Part shown: in pieces, positions 21,489 through 34,654 of the stretch
Layout of the letters: each line of letters starts with the position of its first letter
How positions within the stretch are numbered: position 1 is the first letter of the stretch
Sequence record: MH494197.1
From: Escherichia phage CMSTMSU
DNA length: 64,000 nt
Direction: 5' to 3' (one strand)
Notes under the pieces: generated by a model
What the model was told of the DNA's origin: nothing
The model's database searches: none
The model's input: the letters and a program-made list of their open reading frames with translations, nothing else
Position numbers and translations under genes: made by a program

Positions 21489-22595
21489 ATGTTACCTTTT
21501 GCAAGAATGGTTAAGTACGGGAATATTGCACCAGTTCCGGTAGTTCCTACAATAAAAGATTTTAAGATTGGATTTTCACATGAAGTGTTATTGGACAGTG
21601 CAGGTGATGTATGGGGTATTGGATACAATACAGATGGGCAGTTGGCTTTTTGGATGCAAACACCAATTCATTAGGTGCGTGGTCTAAGATATATACTGAT
21701 GTTCGATTAATTGGAGTTACTGCTAGATATACAGTGGTAGTTACTAATAATAATAGAATACTATACGCAGGAAATAACTTAATTTCTAGTACTACCACTC
21801 TTGGGTGGACCGATATAACTACCAGTATGGGTCCGGTTGCGGTGGATAGCATCGATGCATTATATTGTACAGAGGGTATGATGCATATTAAAACTTCAGA
21901 TGGTTCTTTATATGCATATGGTCGTAACATGAACGCAAACAGTGGTGTTACTGGTGGTGTTATTAGTGTTGCAACTAAGGTTAATTTGCCTTCTGCTGTA
22001 AATGACATGCGATATACGTTTAGTTATGGTTCAGTACTATGTAGATTGGATACGACTTCTATATACGCATGGGGACGAAACATAAATGGTGAATTAGGTC
22101 AGGGTAATGCAACAGCCATTGTTACTCCAAAACTATTGTCTGGTTCTTCTATTGCAATGGGTACTTCGTATAATGCTACTGCAATTGTTTCTGGTTCTGC
22201 ATTGTTGCTTACATGTGGTGGACAAAACAGTGGGCAGTTAGGTAATGGTATTACAACTGATGGTAATGTATACACCTTTGGTGTCAGGACATACCAGCGA
22301 TCTTAATACAATAAGAAGTCCAGTGGATTGCAGTACAACGTACACCTCTGCATTTATGAGTCCAGATGGTATATATTACACTGGTGCTAACCGAAGTATG
22401 TTTGGTGGTATTAGTGGTGGTGCTACCGTTGGAATATATACTAAATGTAGTGATTTACCAATAACATATTCTAATATAATTCAGTGGAGTAGTGGTACTA
22501 TTGGTGGTGCTATATGTAGTAGTACAGAGTTATACCAATGTGGTATAGGTAGATACATTGCTGGTGATGGTGCGAGCACAACCGTATGGATTTAG
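21489..22595 (+). CDS. leader-tagged RCC1-like repeat protein F10 (frame breaks)
   Basis: Track ORFs 21489..21674, 21611..22306, 22245..22595; N-terminus MLPFARMVKYGN; break near a T-run. Confidence 0.65.
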
Positions 22596-28317: not shown

Positions 28318-29449
28318 ATGTTACCTTTTGCAAGAATGGTTAAGTACGGGAATATAAAAGTAAAGAGTACTATCCAAAAAGTTATCCTTGGTGGTGGTGG
28401 TCAATGTGTGGTAACATTACTCAGTGATGGTAGAGTGTATGGACGTGGATACAATACAACATATGGGTTGGGTACTGGTACAACAACATTCGTAAGTGAT
28501 TGGGTATTAATGGGCGATAATATTGTTGATATCCATTCAAATGGTGTTACTGGCACATTCCTTATTACCAAAGAAAATAGAATTTTGTATTCTGGTTTTG
28601 CGACACCAATCAATGGCACAACATCACATTATACACGTTTCACTGATTTAACATCAACTGTATTTGCTGCGGTGGATGTTAGTAATATTAAAACAATTAC
28701 GGGAAATGGTAATGTTACAATGGTTCTTTTGAATGATGGTTCACTTTATGGGAGTGCAAATACAGGGTTATAGGTAATGGTAGTAACGTTGCATTATCAA
28801 CACAAACATATGTGACTAATGATGTGCGTGATGTGAAAACATATCCATCAATGAACACTATAACAAAAATAATAATCAAATATTGGCTAGTGGTATTTTA
28901 TACCAAGGCGTGAACGGTACAAATTCATCAATAAACACGTCTTCATATACATTACTGTACACATTACCGAGTTCTGATTGTTTTCAATTTGCATTTGATA
29001 CATATACATTTGGATATGTTGACCCTAGTACTAACACTTCTTATATAAGAGGTATACCAATAAATGGTTCATTAGGTAATGGCGTTACTAATAATACAGC
29101 AGTTACAACATGGGTTACTAAAGTTTGGAATACACCAATTGATAGTTCTATACCTAATAAATCATATACAACTAACCATGTCTCCTTGTTCAATGATGGA
29201 AACTTATGGACAACTGGTGCATCTAGTGTCGGCTATTCCAATGGTACAAATAGCACAACAGCTAATACATGGACCAGTTCATCTAATTTACCATTCAACA
29301 CTAATAACATAACAGACTATGCTTTTGGTGGTAGTATTACTGTGGTGGTAATCGACTATAGGACTATGTACATACTAGCTAACAACGCCATTGCTGGTAC
29401 TGCTACGACAACTTATAAATTTGAGCCATATAATTCTCCACCAGTTTAA
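28318..29449 (+). CDS. leader-tagged RCC1-like repeat protein F16 (frame break)
   Basis: Track ORFs 28318..28773 and 28883..29449; N-terminus MLPFARMVKYGN; starts 10 nt after F15 stop behind GGAGG. Confidence 0.65.
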
Positions 29450-29479
29450 TATAATGCCAGTACTATGTACTGGCTTTCT

Positions 29480-30128
29480 TTACATATTATATAATGTGAA
29501 TGCTGTCACTTTACCAGTTGTTGTTAGTTCATTATAAAGATACTCCAATATTCTCGCACACTCTAAGTATATCTCGATATCATCATGAATAAGTGAGTAC
29601 TGAAATAGCTGTTCTTCAGATAATTTGTATTGACTTCCTTTTAATGAATTGAGAATATCTTTCACATCATCAAGTACTGGGTAAAGTACGAAATCTTCAT
29701 CATATTTTGAAGCAATAAATTCAAATCCACCACCATCAGTACTAGATATACCAATCAGTACTTTATCAACCAAGTTAATGTTTATATAACGGTTGTGATT
29801 TGGGTGAATTGAAATCTCAAACATACGAGTACTGTTACAATCAACATCAATATACAAATATACATCGTTGAATTTATAAGTTAAGCAACCGTACTCAAGA
29901 AAATCAGAGCAAATAATTGATGAGTTTTTCTCGTCTCTGCGTAATGCATCTTGATATTCTTTTCACGCATAAGTAATTCGAACTTTGCACTAAACTTGCC
30001 ACCAGTAAGATAATTAGTATTAGGACGTTTGTAACTTGCAACTGGTCGGTGGGATGATGTAAAGTATTTTTTGTGAATCGTTTCTGTTTAGTGAAATATT
30101 CTTGATAGAACTTACTTCTTTTATTCAT
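29480..30128 (-). CDS. hypothetical protein encoded antisense within the array (frame break)
   Basis: Track ORFs 29904..30128 and 29480..29857 joined by a shifted frame (GGKFSAKFELLMREKNIKMHY...); sits between F16 and F17. Confidence 0.4.
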
Positions 30129-30205
30129 GAGTACCTCAATTAAATCGCTGTAAAATTGTACATTATAAAATGATTAAATAAAGTATAACACAAGGAGATT
30201 TTATC

Positions 30206-31324
30206 ATGTTACCTTTCGTATTGTTATTTGATTATGGGAACGAAAAACAAGAAAGTTCTTATGATGTTAGTGTATATGGAAACAATAACTACATTTTAAA
30301 TAAACAAACTGGAAACCTTTTTGCATCCGGTGCTGCGCATTCATGGGTGATAACACAGTTAAGTATTATATTACCCAAATAGAATCAAATGTTCATAGCT
30401 GTGAGATAGGTTTCCTATCATCATGGATAATTAAGAAGGACAAAACTGTTTTCATTTTAGGAAACAAAAGCAGTATTGGATTAACTGATTCGACAACATC
30501 ATGGTTCGAAATTACAAACTTATTTTCTGCTGTTCCTGAAATATGGGACAACCTATTTGAATGTAAAGTTCAATTGGGATATAACTGCATACGTGTTATG
30601 ACACCACTAGGATCAATATATGCGATTGGTACAAACACTTATGGTGCATTGGGTACTGGTACTACATCCTCATCCACTTCGTTCGTTAAAAGTGGTGCTG
30701 TGGATGCTGTACGCATGGAATCAACAGAACGTTCAGTGTTCTATCAAAACAGTTCTGGACAATGGTTTGGATGTGGTGATAACACATATGGTATACTAGG
30801 TCTAGGAACTACCGCTAGTCGTGTAAACTCATACACCGCACCAGTATGGACTAATGCAGAAGCTGTTAGCTTCTCTAACCGTGGATCATATACAGCCTCA
30901 ATGGTACTCTATACTCATGTGGTGACAAAGTTAATGGTCAGCTAGGGATGGATATACACAAAGCATAGACGCTGCCGAGCACACCATACACCATAGGAAC
31001 CGCATTCCAAATTGGTAAGGCAATAACATCAGCTACACAAGCATCAGCCAACGTATTCATTGGTAAAGATAATAAGTTCTATGGTACTGGTAGTATTGCT
31101 GCTGGTATAAATGGTAGTACTAGTGCTGCATTAAGTAAAGTTACTGCGTTATCAGCATCACTACCACCTGACATTACATACAATGATATTATATCATTTA
31201 ATACAGGGACCGTAACTTTTATTCAAGCAAAGGACAACTATATTATGTTGGTAGAAGAACTTACATAGATAATAGTTCAGACGTTACCACACAGTTCAGT
31301 GTAATTGGTGGATTAGATAATTAA
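30206..31324 (+). CDS. leader-tagged RCC1-like repeat protein F17, divergent leader (frame breaks)
   Basis: ATG behind AAGGAG; N-terminus MLPFVLLFDYGN; body = track ORF 30343..30945 plus downstream frames ending ...VIGGLDN. Confidence 0.55.
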
Positions 31325-31729
31325 AATTAATCCAGTACTATTATAGTACTGGATTTTTATTATAACATACGTTTTTACGAATAGTATTGTGGATATTTTT
31401 AAGTAGTTCACACCTTTACACAACCCATAAAATACACCAGCACATACACCAAATGCAGGTATCATACATGCAAACATCGTTATCAATTCCCACATCTCCA
31501 TACCATCTTGATTCGGTCCAAGGTCAAAGATAACAACCAAAACCAAACCTGTGATACTTAGCATATAATATGCCATGAAGATAATAAAAGAAACAATACC
31601 AACATCAGAGCGAACTGAATTTAGCATATTATATACTGGGGTTACACAGAAGTAATACAATAACCAAATCAAAGAACCTAAACTAAACACAATAATAGTA
31701 ATGATTGAAAATATTTCACGATAACTCAT
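31313..31729 (-). CDS. small membrane protein (WYFK-motif family)
   Basis: Track ORF with predicted TM helices; start of minus-strand block. Confidence 0.5.
   Translation of the reverse strand: MSYREIFSIITIIVFSLGSLIWLLYYFCVTPVYNMLNSVRSDVGIVSFIIFMAYYMLSITGLVLVVIFDLGPNQDGMEMWELITMFACMIPAFGVCAGVFYGLCKGVNYLKISTILFVKTYVIIKIQYYNSTGLILII
31322..31360. terminator. bidirectional terminator closing the array
   Basis: Perfect 13-bp inverted repeat AATCCAGTACTAT-TA-TAGTACTGGATT flanked by A/T runs. Confidence 0.6.
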
Positions 31730-31730
31730 T

Positions 31731-32093
31731 TTAGTCCCTCGTACCTAAACGATCATGGATTTCGGAAATCTTATGATACAACCACGCCATCAACTCAACT
31801 GATGCACAGAGAATAACCACACACAGTGTTAGTGAACATATCATAATACCAAATGTTATAAAATTCAAACTCGATGTTAATAATGCAACCAGCATTAGAA
31901 TAAAACCAAAATTGAATGCTATACTCAACACAGTATATGCTGGACTATATCTCCTTTGTATTACATCATATATATTTGATAATGGTCGCTTATGGAAGTA
32001 CTTCCCAATGCACACGAATGCATTCAGTGAGAAGATAAATGTATACGCCATTACCATTAATTGACCAATAAAAGATAATTCAATATTATTCAT
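31731..32093 (-). CDS. small membrane protein (WYFK-motif family)
   Basis: Track ORF; hydrophobic; KYFHKRPLSNIY resembles WYFKRQFYKR in 33139..33453. Confidence 0.5.
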   Translation of the reverse strand: MNNIELSFIGQLMVMAYTFIFSLNAFVCIGKYFHKRPLSNIYDVIQRRYSPAYTVLSIAFNFGFILMLVALLTSSLNFITFGIMICSLTLCVVILCASVELMAWLYHKISEIHDRLGTRD

Positions 32094-32249
32094 GTTATCC
32101 TCGTTTGCGGTATTTGATGCTTTGGTGCATTCTCTGAAAATGTGGAACTAATACATATTGTACGGTTTGCCAAATTACCATCAGATTATGGACAGCACCA
32201 CCGAGTAGACCAAACACTACACAGATAATTGCCAGTACTGGATCACCAT

Positions 32250-32465
32250 CTACCATACCCCATTTGAATATATGTAAAATCCATACAGTGATAAGTAGTA
32301 ATAAACTAATCCAATACGTAGTAAAAATCCTGCATGTAATTCATAGTCATCAGCAATTTCATCGTATACGGTTTCCAAGAAGGATACACAGAAGAACTTG
32401 CCAATAATAACAATTGTACTAATAAACAACATAGCAGTTAATATAATAAGTGCAATTTCCATCAC
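32250..32465 (-). CDS. small membrane protein
   Basis: Track ORF; hydrophobic N-terminus then KFFCVSFLETVY. Confidence 0.4.
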   Translation of the reverse strand: MMEIALIILTAMLFISTIVIIGKFFCVSFLETVYDEIADDYELHAGFLLRIGLVYYYLSLYGFYIYSNGVW

Positions 32466-32526
32466 ATCCCTCGTTTACGCTTTTGATTGCGTCTAAATTC
32501 GGTTAGCCCACGACTAATCGGTGGCA

Positions 32527-32775
32527 TCAGACTACATAAAAAATAACAGTTGTTGGCAATAACATGAAATCAATCATAGCTGTATCATCAGGTGGATCAC
32601 ATACCAAATAATACAAACAAGTAATACTAATAATGGTTGACCCAATAAAAGGAATACAAAATTCTTTTATCTGTTTTTCAACATAATCAAACATCTTCAG
32701 TACAAATAAAAATCCAACCCAACACATAATAAAATAGAATGAATACAACGTGTAAATCAATGTTAAGATATCCAT
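32527..32775 (-). CDS. small membrane protein
   Basis: Track ORF; hydrophobic. Confidence 0.4.
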   Translation of the reverse strand: MDILTLIYTLYSFYFIMCWVGFLFVLKMFDYVEKQIKEFCIPFIGSTIISITCLYYLVCDPPDDTAMIDFMLLPTTVIFYVV

Positions 32776-32907
32776 TAGTACCTCGCATCAGGAACTTTAG
32801 CACGTAATTTATGAACGACTGGGAACAACAACAAACTTACATATGCAATAGTTGAACCCCAATAGAATACTAATATAATTGGTTCACCATTGGAACGGAA
32901 CCCTCTA

Positions 32908-33138
32908 CTAATCATTGAGTAGTGAATAATAGGCATAAACATCGCCATAAAACCATGCGTGTAATTTTAATTGCAGCATGTTATCAGAGATGAATACTGA
33001 AATTGGTCGTTTGAAGAACCACATCAGAAAGTAGAATCCAGCACTAAGAATATAGTACATAGTACTAACTTTCATATACCACGGCAGTAAGTGTAAAAAT
33101 ATTCCATCATTCCTCCGGTATCTTGTTTCGAAGTTCAA
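32908..33138 (-). CDS. small membrane protein
   Basis: Track ORF; WFFKRPISVF motif. Confidence 0.4.
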   Translation of the reverse strand: MNFETRYRRNDGIFLHLLPWYMKVSTMYYILSAGFYFLMWFFKRPISVFISDNMLQLKLHAWFYGDVYAYYSLLND

Positions 33139-33453
33139 TCATAACACAACAAAGTTTAATGGCCAAGTAAAAACTACACATATCATACCCAATGTACCGT
33201 AAACTGCGGAGAATGCTGGCAGTACCTTTCCTGTGAGTGTTGCTACAATACATGCTATCAATGTTGATGCAAACAACGATTGATTAATGAAAGAATTCAT
33301 AAAATCTTCACCATTACGCTTATAGAATTGTCGTTTAAAATACCATCCTAGAAACATAACTACCCAAAATGTTACATAACCTGTTAGAATAATCCCTGCA
33401 ATTGAATGTGCAACAGAACTACTCTTTAAAAACTCAAGATAAGCTTCAATCAT
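33139..33453 (-). CDS. small membrane protein
   Basis: Track ORF; several hydrophobic segments; WYFKRQFYKR motif. Confidence 0.5.
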   Translation of the reverse strand: MIEAYLEFLKSSSVAHSIAGIILTGYVTFWVVMFLGWYFKRQFYKRNGEDFMNSFINQSLFASTLIACIVATLTGKVLPAFSAVYGTLGMICVVFTWPLNFVVL

Positions 33454-33856
33454 TAGAAATCTCCACGAATTTTTGCTCTACCATTAATGATGAGATTAAA
33501 CAAGTATATCAGCACCCAAATTAGTAATCCAAGGAATACAATATATTGTGATATTGAGTTCAAGTGAGGATTAGCACAATAAATTAAGTGTGCGATAAGA
33601 CCAACAATTGCAAACATACCTTGGATAATAGTGAAAAGAAGTAGTGAAATGTTTCCATCAGGATACAGTTTGAAAACGATTTTCTTTTTAAAATACCATA
33701 GTACTACAACTAGTGCATGATAAAAGAAAAACCAAACAGATAAATCAAAGTAATACTAAGCATTGTATCTGAATTAAAAACTCAAGCATATCGTATCTCC
33801 GGTGGTGAATATTAAGTTATAGTACTACACTATGGTAGTACTGTCAATACATGTAA

Positions 33857-34626
33857 TTAAATTTTCTCAAGGAACATGTTTTCTGCCATTGACTCCCAAT
33901 CATATGGAAATTTATTATACAGACCAGCGATCAGTACTGGCATACGCAGAGAAGGTGAACGCAGCTTTTCTTCGTTGTTCAGCATCCAGTTTAAGATAGC
34001 TTTACAACCATTTTTATTAACCCCATTGTTCTCAAGAATATTAGTCTTGTTCATGATGTTCTCAATGTGAATCATAACTTCTTCGTTAGTGAACAGTTGA
34101 AGATCAACAAAGATACTACGAGTAATCAGTGCATCAATGTGTGGTGCTAAACTGCTTTTACCTTTAGCAATCTGTGACAGGTTTTGTTCGTCAGGAAGAT
34201 TACCTTCCCACGGAATTCAAACTGCTTAGGAATACCCTGCTGTTCCGTACTTCCCAGAAGTTGCATAAGATACAACCCGCTTCTCTGACGTGTCCAACAC
34301 GGCTTTAAGTAAATCAATATTGGTTTCATCACTGAAGATATCAACGTCATCAAGTAACAGTACTGATGCGGCATGACGTGAACGATACAGTGCTTCGTAC
34401 AGACCCATAGTGGTTACTTTACCGCTGATCTTTTGTAGTCGATTTCAAAGTTATCATCAGCTTTCTGCAAACGCTGGTCAACGTTGTAAGTTTTTCCAAC
34501 ACCACCTTTACCAGATACAATCAGGGAATTGATTGAATTAGCTTGGGTATCAAGTAAACATTCCAAAGCTGCCATCATGCTGTTGAAGTTCTTTTCGATT
34601 TGGATTGCTTTCTCTGTACGGGTCAT
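33857..34626 (-). CDS. P-loop NTPase (frame breaks)
   Basis: ATG at 34626 behind AGAGGA; Walker A SGKGGVGKT, Walker B-like VLLLDDVD, IFLTN; assembled from track ORFs 34414..34773, 34226..34408, 34147..34374, 33857..34075. Confidence 0.55.
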
Positions 34627-34654
34627 GTCTTTATCCTCTTGAGTTGATGAAATG

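What the first reader, a model, noticed from the sequence alone, without database searches (positions are those of the whole stretch)
29480..30128. Antisense gene embedded in the array
A ~215-codon minus-strand gene sits between F16 and F17, sharing the F16 terminator hairpin in reverse. It is the only interruption of strand polarity in the 20-kb array and may be a mobile insertion or a regulator.
Basis: seen in the sequence. Interest (0 to 1): 0.4.

Follow-up and report, generated by a model that had tools for sequence, protein, structure and literature searches.

The report
Ordinary conserved phage gene, mis-sequenced
The "antisense gene" is a real 216-codon gene of unknown function found only in one genus of giant E. 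coli phages; it marks the edge of the neighbouring gene block rather than an insertion, and looks broken here only because of nanopore sequencing errors.

Summary
A minus-strand gene does lie at 29480..30128, but the window holds no intact ~215-codon ORF. The reading frame is split over three frames by two 1-nt deletions in T-runs. Restoring one T in each run gives a 216-aa protein identical to a protein present in many related phages.

The window matches the MinION-only draft of E. coli jumbo phage CMSTMSU. It has 0 CCWGG sites in 64 kb, and 114 of 120 indels against relatives are deletions. The breaks are therefore assembly errors, not decay.

The gene is intact in nine ~99% relatives, under purifying selection (dN/dS 0.2), and restricted to Asteriusvirus-like phages (three 50%-identity clusters among 1.84 billion representatives). 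It has no Pfam, NCBIfam, PADLOC or PDB match and no convincing fold match.

In 121Q, phAPEC6 and JNE01 its homologue is the last or next-to-last gene of the opposing block of small genes and abuts the RCC1-like array. In this lineage one extra lineage-specific RCC1 cassette (F17) lies beyond it, which makes it look embedded.

It is not a mobile element. A regulatory role is untested. The shared hairpin is confirmed. My best reading is a fast-evolving, non-virion accessory protein in a variable slot. Low interest.

The parts
29480..30128 (-). Gene X. It has 216 codons once two assembly deletions are repaired. Orthologue of fEgEco12 g581, WPEC3 CDS114, 121Q gp233 and phAPEC6 gp011c; member of PHROG 34359, function unknown.
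   Evidence: Three-frame translation. Intact 651-nt CDS in relatives. The repaired product equals P0001. phrog_34359 E=1.3e-56. dN/dS 0.195.
30067..30072 (.). T6 run (T7 in relatives): first frameshifting 1-nt deletion inside gene X, at codons 20-21 (Lys-Lys).
   Evidence: Alignment to L001 and L002. Repair test.
29925..29929 (.). T5 run (T6 in relatives): second frameshifting 1-nt deletion inside gene X, at about codon 68.
29456..29474 (.). Palindromic hairpin GCCAGTAC-TAT-GTACTGGC between the stops of F16 and X. It is a good intrinsic terminator for F16 (followed by TTTCTTT; TTTTCTTTT in relatives). It is weaker for X, where the tail is ATTATATTAA.
   Evidence: both strands; 2 found against 0.2 expected. 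Sequence.
30129..30205 (.). 77-bp divergent intergenic region between X and F17. On the minus strand: Shine-Dalgarno GAGGT at 30137-30133 and a candidate -10 TATAAT at 30167-30162. On the plus strand: a degenerate array-type module ATTAAATA-A-AGTATAAC at 30173-30189 and Shine-Dalgarno AAGGAG at 30192-30197 for F17.
   Evidence: Sequence. Comparison with the upstream modules of all RCC1 genes. The X-proximal part is conserved in L010, but TATAAT is TGTAAT there. Promoter assignment is inference only.
28318..29449 (+). F16, an RCC1-like paralogue (orthologue of fEgEco12 g582). It is fragmented in the window by the same kind of deletions.
   Evidence: It has no orthologue above 32% identity in 121Q or JNE01 and is replaced by a different paralogue in L010.
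30206..31324 (+). F17, an RCC1-like paralogue (orthologue of fEgEco12 g580). It is a lineage-specific cassette lying between X and the rest of the leftward block, and is fragmented in the window.
   Evidence: Pfam RCC1 50.2 bits. Found only in the 9 close relatives and at 88% identity in L010. At most 26% identical to any other paralogue.
31330..31354 (.). Hairpin ATCCAGTACT-ATTAT-AGTACTGGAT followed by a T-run, between F17 and the gp232-like gene. The same stem lies directly between gp232 and the X homologue in 121Q and phAPEC6.

Best explanation
Shown:
- 29480..30128 (minus strand) is a real, conserved protein-coding gene of an Asteriusvirus-like E. coli jumbo phage, almost certainly phage CMSTMSU.
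- Its true length is 651 nt (216 aa). Its apparent fragmentation comes from two homopolymer deletions typical of the unpolished MinION assembly this window derives from.
- It is not an insertion into the RCC1-like array. Its homologues in 121Q, phAPEC6 and JNE01 are the last or next-to-last gene of the opposing block, which consists of an NrdC.10-like NTPase followed by about eight paralogous small membrane-protein genes. That block converges on the array.
- In the window lineage, and in a 73%-diverged metagenomic lineage, one extra RCC1 cassette (F17) with its own array-type upstream module sits between this gene and the rest of its block. The gene is therefore flanked by RCC1 genes on both sides.

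Inferred:
- F17 cuts X off from its former operon. X must then be transcribed from a promoter in the 77-bp region it shares divergently with F17, and it ends at the hairpin it shares with F16.
- The protein has a conserved basic amphipathic N-terminal helix (invariant F7, Y8, Y11, F12, F18, K20, K21, Y22), a disordered Lys/Arg-rich linker, and an acidic alpha/beta domain of 6-7 antiparallel strands plus four C-terminal helices with no recognisable fold relatives.
- It was not detected in the phAPEC6 virion proteome, although eight RCC1-like proteins were.
- It evolves fast: 45% and 30% identity across the genus, against 96% and 59% for the NTPase at the other end of the block. In phage A4 the slot holds an unrelated DUF1190 lipoprotein.
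- I therefore read it as a non-structural, dispensable accessory (host-interaction) protein. It probably works through protein-protein contacts of the acidic domain, anchored to membrane or nucleic acid by the basic helix.
For: Gene reality:
- intact in 9 relatives.
- repair gives P0001 exactly.
- dN/dS 0.195.
- PHROG 34359, E=1e-56.

Assembly artefact:
- 114 of 120 indels are deletions in the window, 53 of them in homopolymers of 4 or more and 17 at CCWGG. The window has 0 CCWGG in 64 kb against 0.6-2.0 per kb in relatives.
- the 125-aa fragment was deposited as CMSTMSU AXC38998.1.
- PMC6256653 describes MinION reads, Albacore base calling and Canu assembly, with no polishing mentioned.

Boundary position:
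- in 121Q and phAPEC6 the order is gp232, hairpin, Shine-Dalgarno, X, converging on RCC1.
- in JNE01 the X start overlaps the stop of the upstream gene.
- the same ATCCAGTAC hairpin follows the gp232 homologue here, with F17 inserted after it.
- F17 occurs only alongside the window-type X, always about 77 bp away.

Variable slot and divergence gradient:
- identity to 121Q runs 96, 81, 90, 91, 91, 83, 73, 63, then 45% towards the junction.
- F16 and F17 have no orthologues in 121Q or JNE01.
- phage A4 carries a DUF1190 lipoprotein instead.

Protein features:
- invariant columns.
- two AlphaFold models with the same topology (pLDDT 69.5 and 73.8, pTM 0.71).
- pI 10.4 for residues 1-58 and acidic for the rest.

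Non-virion:
- PMC7247149 Table 1 lists gp003, 005, 006, 007, 009, 010, 549 and 551 but not gp011c.
Against: - The functional part is inference from context only. No homologue has a known function and there are no expression data.
- Absence from one mass-spectrometry virion list does not prove absence from the virion.
- The history (F17 gained rather than X moved) rests on parsimony over three or four lineages. F16 and F17 have no orthologues elsewhere that could polarise it.
- In 121Q the T-run of the gp232 hairpin points in the RCC1 direction. It could be a relic of a lost F17-like gene.
- The proposed -10 TATAAT is TGTAAT in the L010 lineage, so the promoter call is weak.
- Source identity (CMSTMSU) is inferred from one identical truncated protein and the genome description, not from a nucleotide match.
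Confidence: 0.7

Rival explanations
1. The gene is a mobile insertion (homing endonuclease, transposable or moron cassette) that landed inside the RCC1 array.
For: Opposite orientation within a same-strand array. It is flanked by palindromic hairpins that recur through the array and could mediate recombination. The slot is variable across the genus.
Against: - No nuclease, integrase or transposase signature in Pfam, NCBIfam, PADLOC or PDB.
- One copy per genome, and present in all 9 close relatives.
- Homologues keep the same position relative to the gp232-like gene in every lineage examined.
- Divergence of 45% and 30% follows the local gradient, as expected for vertical descent.
Confidence: 0.03
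2. The gene is a genuine pseudogene in this phage: the two frameshifts are real and the gene is decaying.
For: As given, the sequence has no intact ORF.
Against: - Both lesions are single-base losses in T-runs.
- The same error type occurs about every 300-500 bp across the aligned parts of the window, and every CCWGG site is destroyed.
- Apart from the two deletions, the coding sequence gives a product identical to P0001.
- The probable source is an unpolished MinION draft.
Confidence: 0.04
3. X is functionally tied to the RCC1-like virion proteins. It could be an assembly chaperone for them or a regulator of the array, co-regulated with F17 from the shared divergent intergenic region.
For: - X always abuts the RCC1 array.
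- X and F17 form a conserved divergent pair in two lineages, while F16 is replaced.
- X diverges as fast as the junction-proximal RCC1 genes.
- Fibre chaperones are typically non-virion and encoded next to their clients (general phage knowledge).
Against: - X lies on the strand of the non-structural block and is translationally coupled to it in JNE01.
- X exists without F17 in most genomes.
- Phage A4 keeps an RCC1 array but has no X.
- Salmonella phage Munch has an RCC1 array and no X homologue.
- No DNA-binding or chaperone domain was detected.
Confidence: 0.15
4. X is a very divergent DUF402 (Ntdp, FomD, RNase W) domain protein, either a nucleotide phosphatase or RNase, or an inactive derivative of one.
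For: - UniRef names the fEgEco12 protein 'DUF402 domain-containing protein'.
- The best hhalign local alignment pairs X 98-125 (CNSTRMF...YININLVDKVL) with Ntdp 89-114 (CNLSSPF...YIDYDLDIKVY), which is the catalytic motif region.
Against: - PF04167 does not hit any family member even at E<=10, whereas Ntdp itself scores 68.9 bits.
- hhalign probability is 0.2%.
- The model has 6-7 strands, not the 12-strand barrel described for the family (PMC11602121).
- The metal-binding Asp positions are Asn in X, and the motif is not conserved in the 121Q or JNE01 clades.
Confidence: 0.06
5. Alternative history: an F17-like gene is ancestral at the array end and X was transposed inward, or F17 was lost in the 121Q, JNE01 and A4 lineages. 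In that case F17 was not gained in the window lineage.
For: In 121Q the hairpin between gp232 and X has its T-run on the RCC1-direction strand, as if it once terminated an RCC1-direction gene. The junction is a hotspot of cassette gain and loss.
Against: It needs independent losses in at least three lineages (121Q/PBECO4, JNE01, A4) against one gain. F17 has no relative above 26% identity in those genomes.
Confidence: 0.15

Closest known systems
PHROG 34359: hypothetical proteins of Asteriusvirus phages (fEgEco12 g581, WPEC3 CDS114, BF17 QXN76560, Ecwhy_1 528)
   Same: Full-length HMM match at E=1.3e-56. 96-100% identity, same length and same neighbours.
   Different: Nothing biological differs. 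The window copy carries two sequencing deletions and was deposited as a 125-aa fragment.
121Q gp233, phAPEC6 gp011c and JNE01 WOL23019 (divergent homologues)
   Same: Same length (213-219 aa), collinear alignment with 36 invariant columns, same predicted topology, and the same position downstream of the gp232-like membrane-protein gene, facing the RCC1 array.
   Different: Only 45% and 30% identity. There is no RCC1 gene between them and their block. In 121Q they are preceded directly by the hairpin and Shine-Dalgarno sequence, and in JNE01 the start overlaps the upstream stop. They can therefore be co-transcribed with the block, which is not possible in the window lineage.
DUF402 / Ntdp (S. 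aureus Sa1684, PDB 7d8g), FomD, RNase W
   Same: An automatic UniRef label, a beta-rich domain followed by C-terminal helices, and a short collinear motif resemblance.
   Different: Fails the Pfam model, the profile-profile comparison, the strand count and the conserved metal ligands. It is not a member on present evidence.
Variable accessory slots at block junctions in large lytic phages (moron-like or exclusion genes; here the DUF1190 lipoprotein A4_235 in phage A4)
   Same: Same genomic slot, replaceable content, rapid divergence, non-virion.
   Different: X has no signal peptide, lipobox or transmembrane segment. No exclusion or anti-defence activity has been shown for X or for A4_235.

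Membership tests
PHROG 34359 (Asteriusvirus hypothetical protein family) | Full-length match to the family HMM | tested here: met
   E=1.3e-56, 192.8 bits, residues 3-216 against profile 5-214/220.
PHROG 34359 (Asteriusvirus hypothetical protein family) | Conserved as a coding sequence across members | tested here: met
   36 invariant columns over 9 sequences. dN/dS 0.195-0.5 between clades.
DUF402 (PF04167; Ntdp, FomD, RNase W) | Match to the Pfam model at or above its gathering score (23.9 bits) | tested here: not met
   No hit at E<=10 for 16 family members. The positive control Sa1684 scores 68.9 bits.
DUF402 (PF04167; Ntdp, FomD, RNase W) | Profile-profile similarity to Ntdp orthologues | tested here: not met
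   hhalign A1 against A3: probability 0.2%, 26 aligned columns.
DUF402 (PF04167; Ntdp, FomD, RNase W) | 12-strand beta-barrel plus three C-terminal helices (PMC11602121) | tested here: inconclusive
DUF402 (PF04167; Ntdp, FomD, RNase W) | Universally conserved Asn and Asp metal ligands (N404, D420, D424 and D437 in PfRNase W; N90, D106, D108 and D110 in the Ntdp motif) | tested here: not met
   In the only alignment obtained, the Asp positions are N117 and N119 in X. The C98-N99 pair and the motif are not conserved in the JNE01 or 121Q clades.
MAM33 / p32 (gC1qBP) fold | N-terminal helix, seven antiparallel strands and C-terminal helices, with significant structural similarity | tested here: inconclusive
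Mobile genetic element (homing endonuclease or transposon cassette) | Encodes a nuclease, recombinase or transposase domain | tested here: not met
   No hit in Pfam, NCBIfam, PADLOC or PDB sequences.
Mobile genetic element (homing endonuclease or transposon cassette) | Presence/absence polymorphism among close relatives, or several genomic locations | tested here: not met
   One place per record in 34 phage records. Present in all 9 near-identical genomes at the same site.
Rho-independent (intrinsic) terminator, bidirectional | GC-rich stem-loop followed by a U-tract on each strand | tested here: met
   8-bp stem with 5 GC pairs and a 3-nt loop at 29456..29474, scored on both strands. The tail is T-rich on the plus strand (TTTCTTT) and only AT-rich on the minus strand (ATTATATT). 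Actual termination was not testable with these tools.
RCC1-like repeat proteins (the flanking genes F16 and F17) | Pfam RCC1 repeat or RCC1-like domain match | tested here: met
   F17 orthologue: PF00415 at 50.2 bits (cut-off 21.7). F16 orthologue: only sub-threshold PF25390 and PF13540 hits, but it shares the array N-terminus MLPF and the same upstream module.

The most novel reading that the evidence does not exclude
X founds a structurally new alpha/beta fold family confined to Asteriusvirus. On this reading it occupies a hypervariable 'junction slot' whose occupants (three X subtypes at 100%, 45% and 30% identity, or the DUF1190 lipoprotein of phage A4) are interchangeable host-interaction factors, for example superinfection exclusion or anti-defence. 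Alternatively X is a dedicated partner of the lineage-specific RCC1-like virion protein F17.
Probability: 0.15. Interest if true: 0.4.

Novelty: already known. Interest (0 to 1): 0.12.

Why it matters
It matters little biologically. The gene is already annotated as a hypothetical protein in at least nine GenBank phage genomes and belongs to an existing PHROG.

The follow-up has three practical uses:
1. It shows that the fragmented ORFs throughout this window, including the RCC1-like array, are nanopore artefacts. No gene in it should be read as a pseudogene, a recoded gene or a programmed frameshift.
2. It corrects the picture of the locus. The array boundary lies at this gene, and F17 is the out-of-place cassette.
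3. It marks the junction between the small-membrane-protein block and the RCC1 array as a recombination and replacement hotspot in Asteriusvirus genomes. That could guide anyone studying host-range or accessory functions of these therapeutic-candidate jumbo phages.

Tried and rejected
- **Stop-codon recoding (TGA read as an amino acid).** I considered this because the first ORF ends at TGA (29904-29906). Rejected: the downstream ORF is in another frame, and relatives differ by single-base indels.
- **Programmed frameshifting.** Rejected: relatives have an uninterrupted ORF, and the same deletions occur window-wide.
- **Sequence homology.** Pfam, NCBIfam, PADLOC and PDB by phmmer and by profile gave nothing. 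An exhaustive HMM search of 1.84 billion representatives found only the family's own three clusters.
- **DUF402 lead from a UniRef name.** Tested with a verified Ntdp sequence and profile, and rejected.
- **Syntenic candidates in other genera.** Munch_534, RaK2 gp218 and A4_235 are not homologous.
- **Orthology of F16 and F17.** This could not decide which gene moved, because neither has an orthologue outside the lineage.
- **Rfam scan of 28500-32000.** Nothing relevant.
- **Literature.** No Asteriusvirus transcriptome. The fEgEco12 authors' BLASTP and HHpred annotation also left Gp581 hypothetical.

Full report
**What is in the sequence**

The ORF finder shows no 215-codon ORF on the minus strand of 29480..30128. 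It gives a 74-aa ORF (29904..30128, ATG start) and a 125-aa ORF (29480..29857) in different frames. Three-frame translation shows a coherent protein that passes from one frame to a second near 30067 and to a third near 29925. The interval is 649 nt, two short of a multiple of three.

The flanking plus-strand genes are RCC1-like and are themselves fragmented. The 30-nt gap between the F16 stop (29447-29449) and the minus-strand stop (29480-29482) contains the hairpin GCCAGTAC-TAT-GTACTGGC at 29456..29474. It is scored as terminator-like on both strands, with 2 sites found against 0.2 expected in shuffles. The "215-codon gene" was a mental reconstruction.

**Where the window comes from, and why the gene looks broken**

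Megablast places the region in nine E. coli jumbo phages at 95-99% identity: WPEC3, fEgEco12, EC.P1, WPEC5, Ecwhy_1, Turkey3, BF17, vB_Ec-M-J and TH47. In WPEC3 and fEgEco12 the same interval is an intact 651-nt CDS annotated "hypothetical protein".

The window differs from them inside the gene by two 1-nt deletions in T-runs: T6 against T7 at 30067-30072, and T5 against T6 at 29925-29929. Adding one T to each run yields a 216-aa product identical to protein P0001.

The pattern holds across the window.
- In blocks aligned at 95% identity or more, 114 of 120 indel events are deletions in the window.
- 53 of them lie in homopolymers of 4 or more bases and 17 lie exactly at CCWGG.
- The window has 0 CCWGG sites in 64 kb against 0.6-2.0 per kb in seven related loci.
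- Homopolymers of 6 or more are about four-fold depleted.

This is the known signature of uncorrected nanopore base calling at homopolymers and Dcm-methylated sites (my own knowledge).

The 125-aa fragment is deposited as AXC38998.1 of "Escherichia phage CMSTMSU". That draft was produced from MinION reads (Albacore, Canu) with no polishing described (PMC6256653). The frameshifts are therefore assembly artefacts. I also considered recoding, programmed frameshifting and pseudogenisation, and rejected each.

**Is it a real gene?**

Yes.
- It is intact in nine phage genomes.
- Its 90%-identity cluster has 36 members on 32 contigs.
- It matches PHROG 34359 over its full length at E=1.3e-56.
- Homologues at about 45% identity (PBECO4, 121Q, phAPEC6 and others, 23 records) and at 30% identity (JNE01, Turkey5) align collinearly with 36 invariant columns.
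- Against a 73%-identical metagenomic homologue, dN/dS is 0.195 at dS 0.76.

The family is narrow. A profile search of 1.84 billion representative proteins returned only its own three clusters.

**Why it is "antisense in the array"**

In 121Q and phAPEC6 the homologue (gp233, gp011c) is the last gene of the block that runs opposite to the RCC1 array. That block consists of an NrdC.10-like P-loop NTPase followed by about eight small, mutually related membrane-protein genes. The homologue lies directly after a hairpin (ATCCAGTACTTGATAGTACTGGAT) and a Shine-Dalgarno sequence, and it converges on the last RCC1 gene.

In JNE01 its start overlaps the stop of the upstream gene, and one small ORF follows before the array.

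In the window lineage the same ATCCAGTAC hairpin follows the gp232 homologue (window 31330-31354). Next comes F17, an RCC1 gene on the array strand with a degenerate copy of the array's upstream module (ATTAAATA-A-AGTATAA...AAGGAG). Only then comes X.

F17 is found only in the nine close relatives, always 77-78 bp from X and divergent from it. It is also present at 88% identity in the metagenomic lineage L010/L011, which has the same layout even though its "F16" is a different paralogue. F16 and F17 have no orthologue above 32% identity in 121Q or JNE01.

The most parsimonious reading is that X marks the old boundary between two convergent blocks and that one RCC1 cassette was added beyond it. 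The alternative is loss of an F17-like gene elsewhere. That is hinted at by the orientation of the T-run of the 121Q hairpin, and I give it about 0.15.

No genome examined has F16 and F17 adjacent. Nothing about X suggests mobility: it has no nuclease or recombinase domain, one copy per genome, a fixed position and a vertical divergence pattern.

**What the protein might do**

No homology-based function could be obtained.
- Pfam, NCBIfam, PADLOC and PDB sequence and profile searches were all empty.
- Two AlphaFold models, one of the window-type protein and one of the 121Q protein, agree on topology at moderate confidence (pLDDT 69.5 and 73.8, pTM 0.71). The topology is an N-terminal helix, a disordered basic linker, a short helix, 6-7 antiparallel strands and four C-terminal helices.
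- BFVD returns only the protein's own fragment.
- The AlphaFold-database libraries were not available.

One lead came from UniRef, which labels the fEgEco12 protein "DUF402 domain-containing". I verified an Ntdp (Sa1684) sequence against PDB 7d8g and confirmed that it hits PF04167. I built a 20-sequence Ntdp profile and compared it with the X profile, which gave probability 0.2%.

The only aligned stretch pairs X 98-125 with the Ntdp catalytic motif. However, the Asp ligands are Asn in X, and the stretch is not conserved in the other X clades. The predicted strand count also falls short of the 12-strand barrel that defines the family (PMC11602121). I do not file X under DUF402.

**Context-based inference**

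- X was not among the 62 virion proteins of phAPEC6, whereas eight RCC1-like proteins were (PMC7247149).
- Identity between the window clade and 121Q falls steadily along the leftward block towards the junction: 96, 81, 90, 91, 91, 83, 73, 63, then 45% for X.
- In phage A4 the slot holds an unrelated DUF1190 lipoprotein.
- Salmonella phage Munch and Klebsiella phage RaK2 have no homologue at the corresponding place.
- The N-terminal 58 residues are strongly basic (pI 10.4) with invariant aromatic and Lys residues arranged as an amphipathic helix. The rest of the protein is acidic.

I therefore commit, at modest confidence, to a non-structural, dispensable accessory protein that acts through protein contacts and is tethered to membrane or nucleic acid by its basic helix. 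The main rival is an RCC1-related chaperone or regulator role (about 0.15).

Expression in this lineage must start in the 77-bp region shared with F17. A TATAAT lies on the minus strand at 30167-30162 and a Shine-Dalgarno GAGGT at 30137-30133. The -10 is not conserved in L010, so the promoter is an inference only. No transcriptome exists for this genus in the searched literature.

**Verdict**

The feature is an already-annotated hypothetical gene of an orphan family, seen here through an error-rich assembly. Interest is low (0.12). The most novel surviving reading, a new-fold accessory factor in a hypervariable junction slot or a dedicated partner of F17, has about 0.15 probability and moderate interest if true.

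Noticed in passing
whole window (1-64000); examples at 30976, 34246, 22583, 8741, 9548: The window has 0 CCWGG (Dcm) sites in 64 kb, against 0.6-2.0 per kb in relatives. CCAGG and CCTGG are systematically turned into CC--G or CC-GG, and homopolymers are shortened. 114 of 120 indels against relatives are deletions. All fragmented ORFs in the window, including the RCC1 array, should be read as nanopore assembly artefacts. The probable source is the MinION-only draft of phage CMSTMSU, MH494197.
   Followed up: yes
window about 11000-31350; fEgEco12 locus L005 900-19300: Nearly every RCC1-like gene is preceded by the same roughly 75-bp module: the hairpin GCCAGTACTnnnGTACTGGC, a T-run, then TATTAAATATAGTATAATGAATAAAGGAGG, then ATGTTACCT. 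The array is thus a string of self-contained terminator-promoter-gene cassettes. The module is well suited to cassette shuffling. TATTAAATA resembles the T4 late-promoter box TATAAATA (my recollection, not tested).
   Followed up: partly
RCC1 arrays: L005 (fEgEco12), L006 (121Q), L007 (JNE01), L010: The array is a mosaic. Some paralogues have 82-99% orthologues across clades (for example g590 and j28 at 99%, g592 and j26 at 97%, g585 and q236 at 96%). Others (g580, g582, g583, g584, g589, g593) have no relative above about 34% identity. The junction-proximal members are the most variable. Eight RCC1-like proteins are virion-associated in phAPEC6 (PMC7247149).
   Followed up: partly
window about 31355-34000 (minus strand); L002 6573-9012: There is a run of about eight tandem small genes (104-123 aa) encoding hydrophobic, multi-transmembrane-looking proteins. 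They are weakly similar to one another (21-46% identity) and are conserved in order in 121Q, JNE01, A4, RaK2 and Munch. The run lies downstream of an NrdC.10-like P-loop NTPase. Function is unknown.
   Followed up: partly
L009 12465-13016 (phage A4, ON286972): In phage A4 the slot occupied by X holds a 183-aa DUF1190 protein (E=4e-32) with a lipoprotein-type signal and lipobox (LVLSSTFIMTGC). This is a bacterial-type lipoprotein in a lytic jumbo phage and a possible superinfection-exclusion candidate.
   Followed up: partly
window about 33870-34640 (minus strand); WPEC3 CDS123 against fEgEco12 g572: The P-loop NTPase at the far end of the block exists as two alleles within otherwise ~99%-identical genomes. 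fEgEco12, EC.P1 and WPEC5 carry a 121Q-like allele (96-97% to 121Q). WPEC3, and by its 98% alignment to WPEC3 probably the window, carries an allele only 59% identical. This is evidence of local recombinational replacement.
   Followed up: partly
L003 5940-5965 and 6620-6660 (121Q): In 121Q the X homologue and the last RCC1 gene overlap 3' end to 3' end by 20 nt with no hairpin between them. The only nearby hairpin, upstream of X, has its T-run on the RCC1-direction strand. Late RCC1 transcription may therefore read antisense across X in that clade.
   Followed up: no
window 21562-22008 (minus strand): A 148-aa minus-strand ORF lies inside the array. It overlaps a plus-strand RCC1 ORF and is not annotated in relatives, so it is most likely spurious.
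   Followed up: partly
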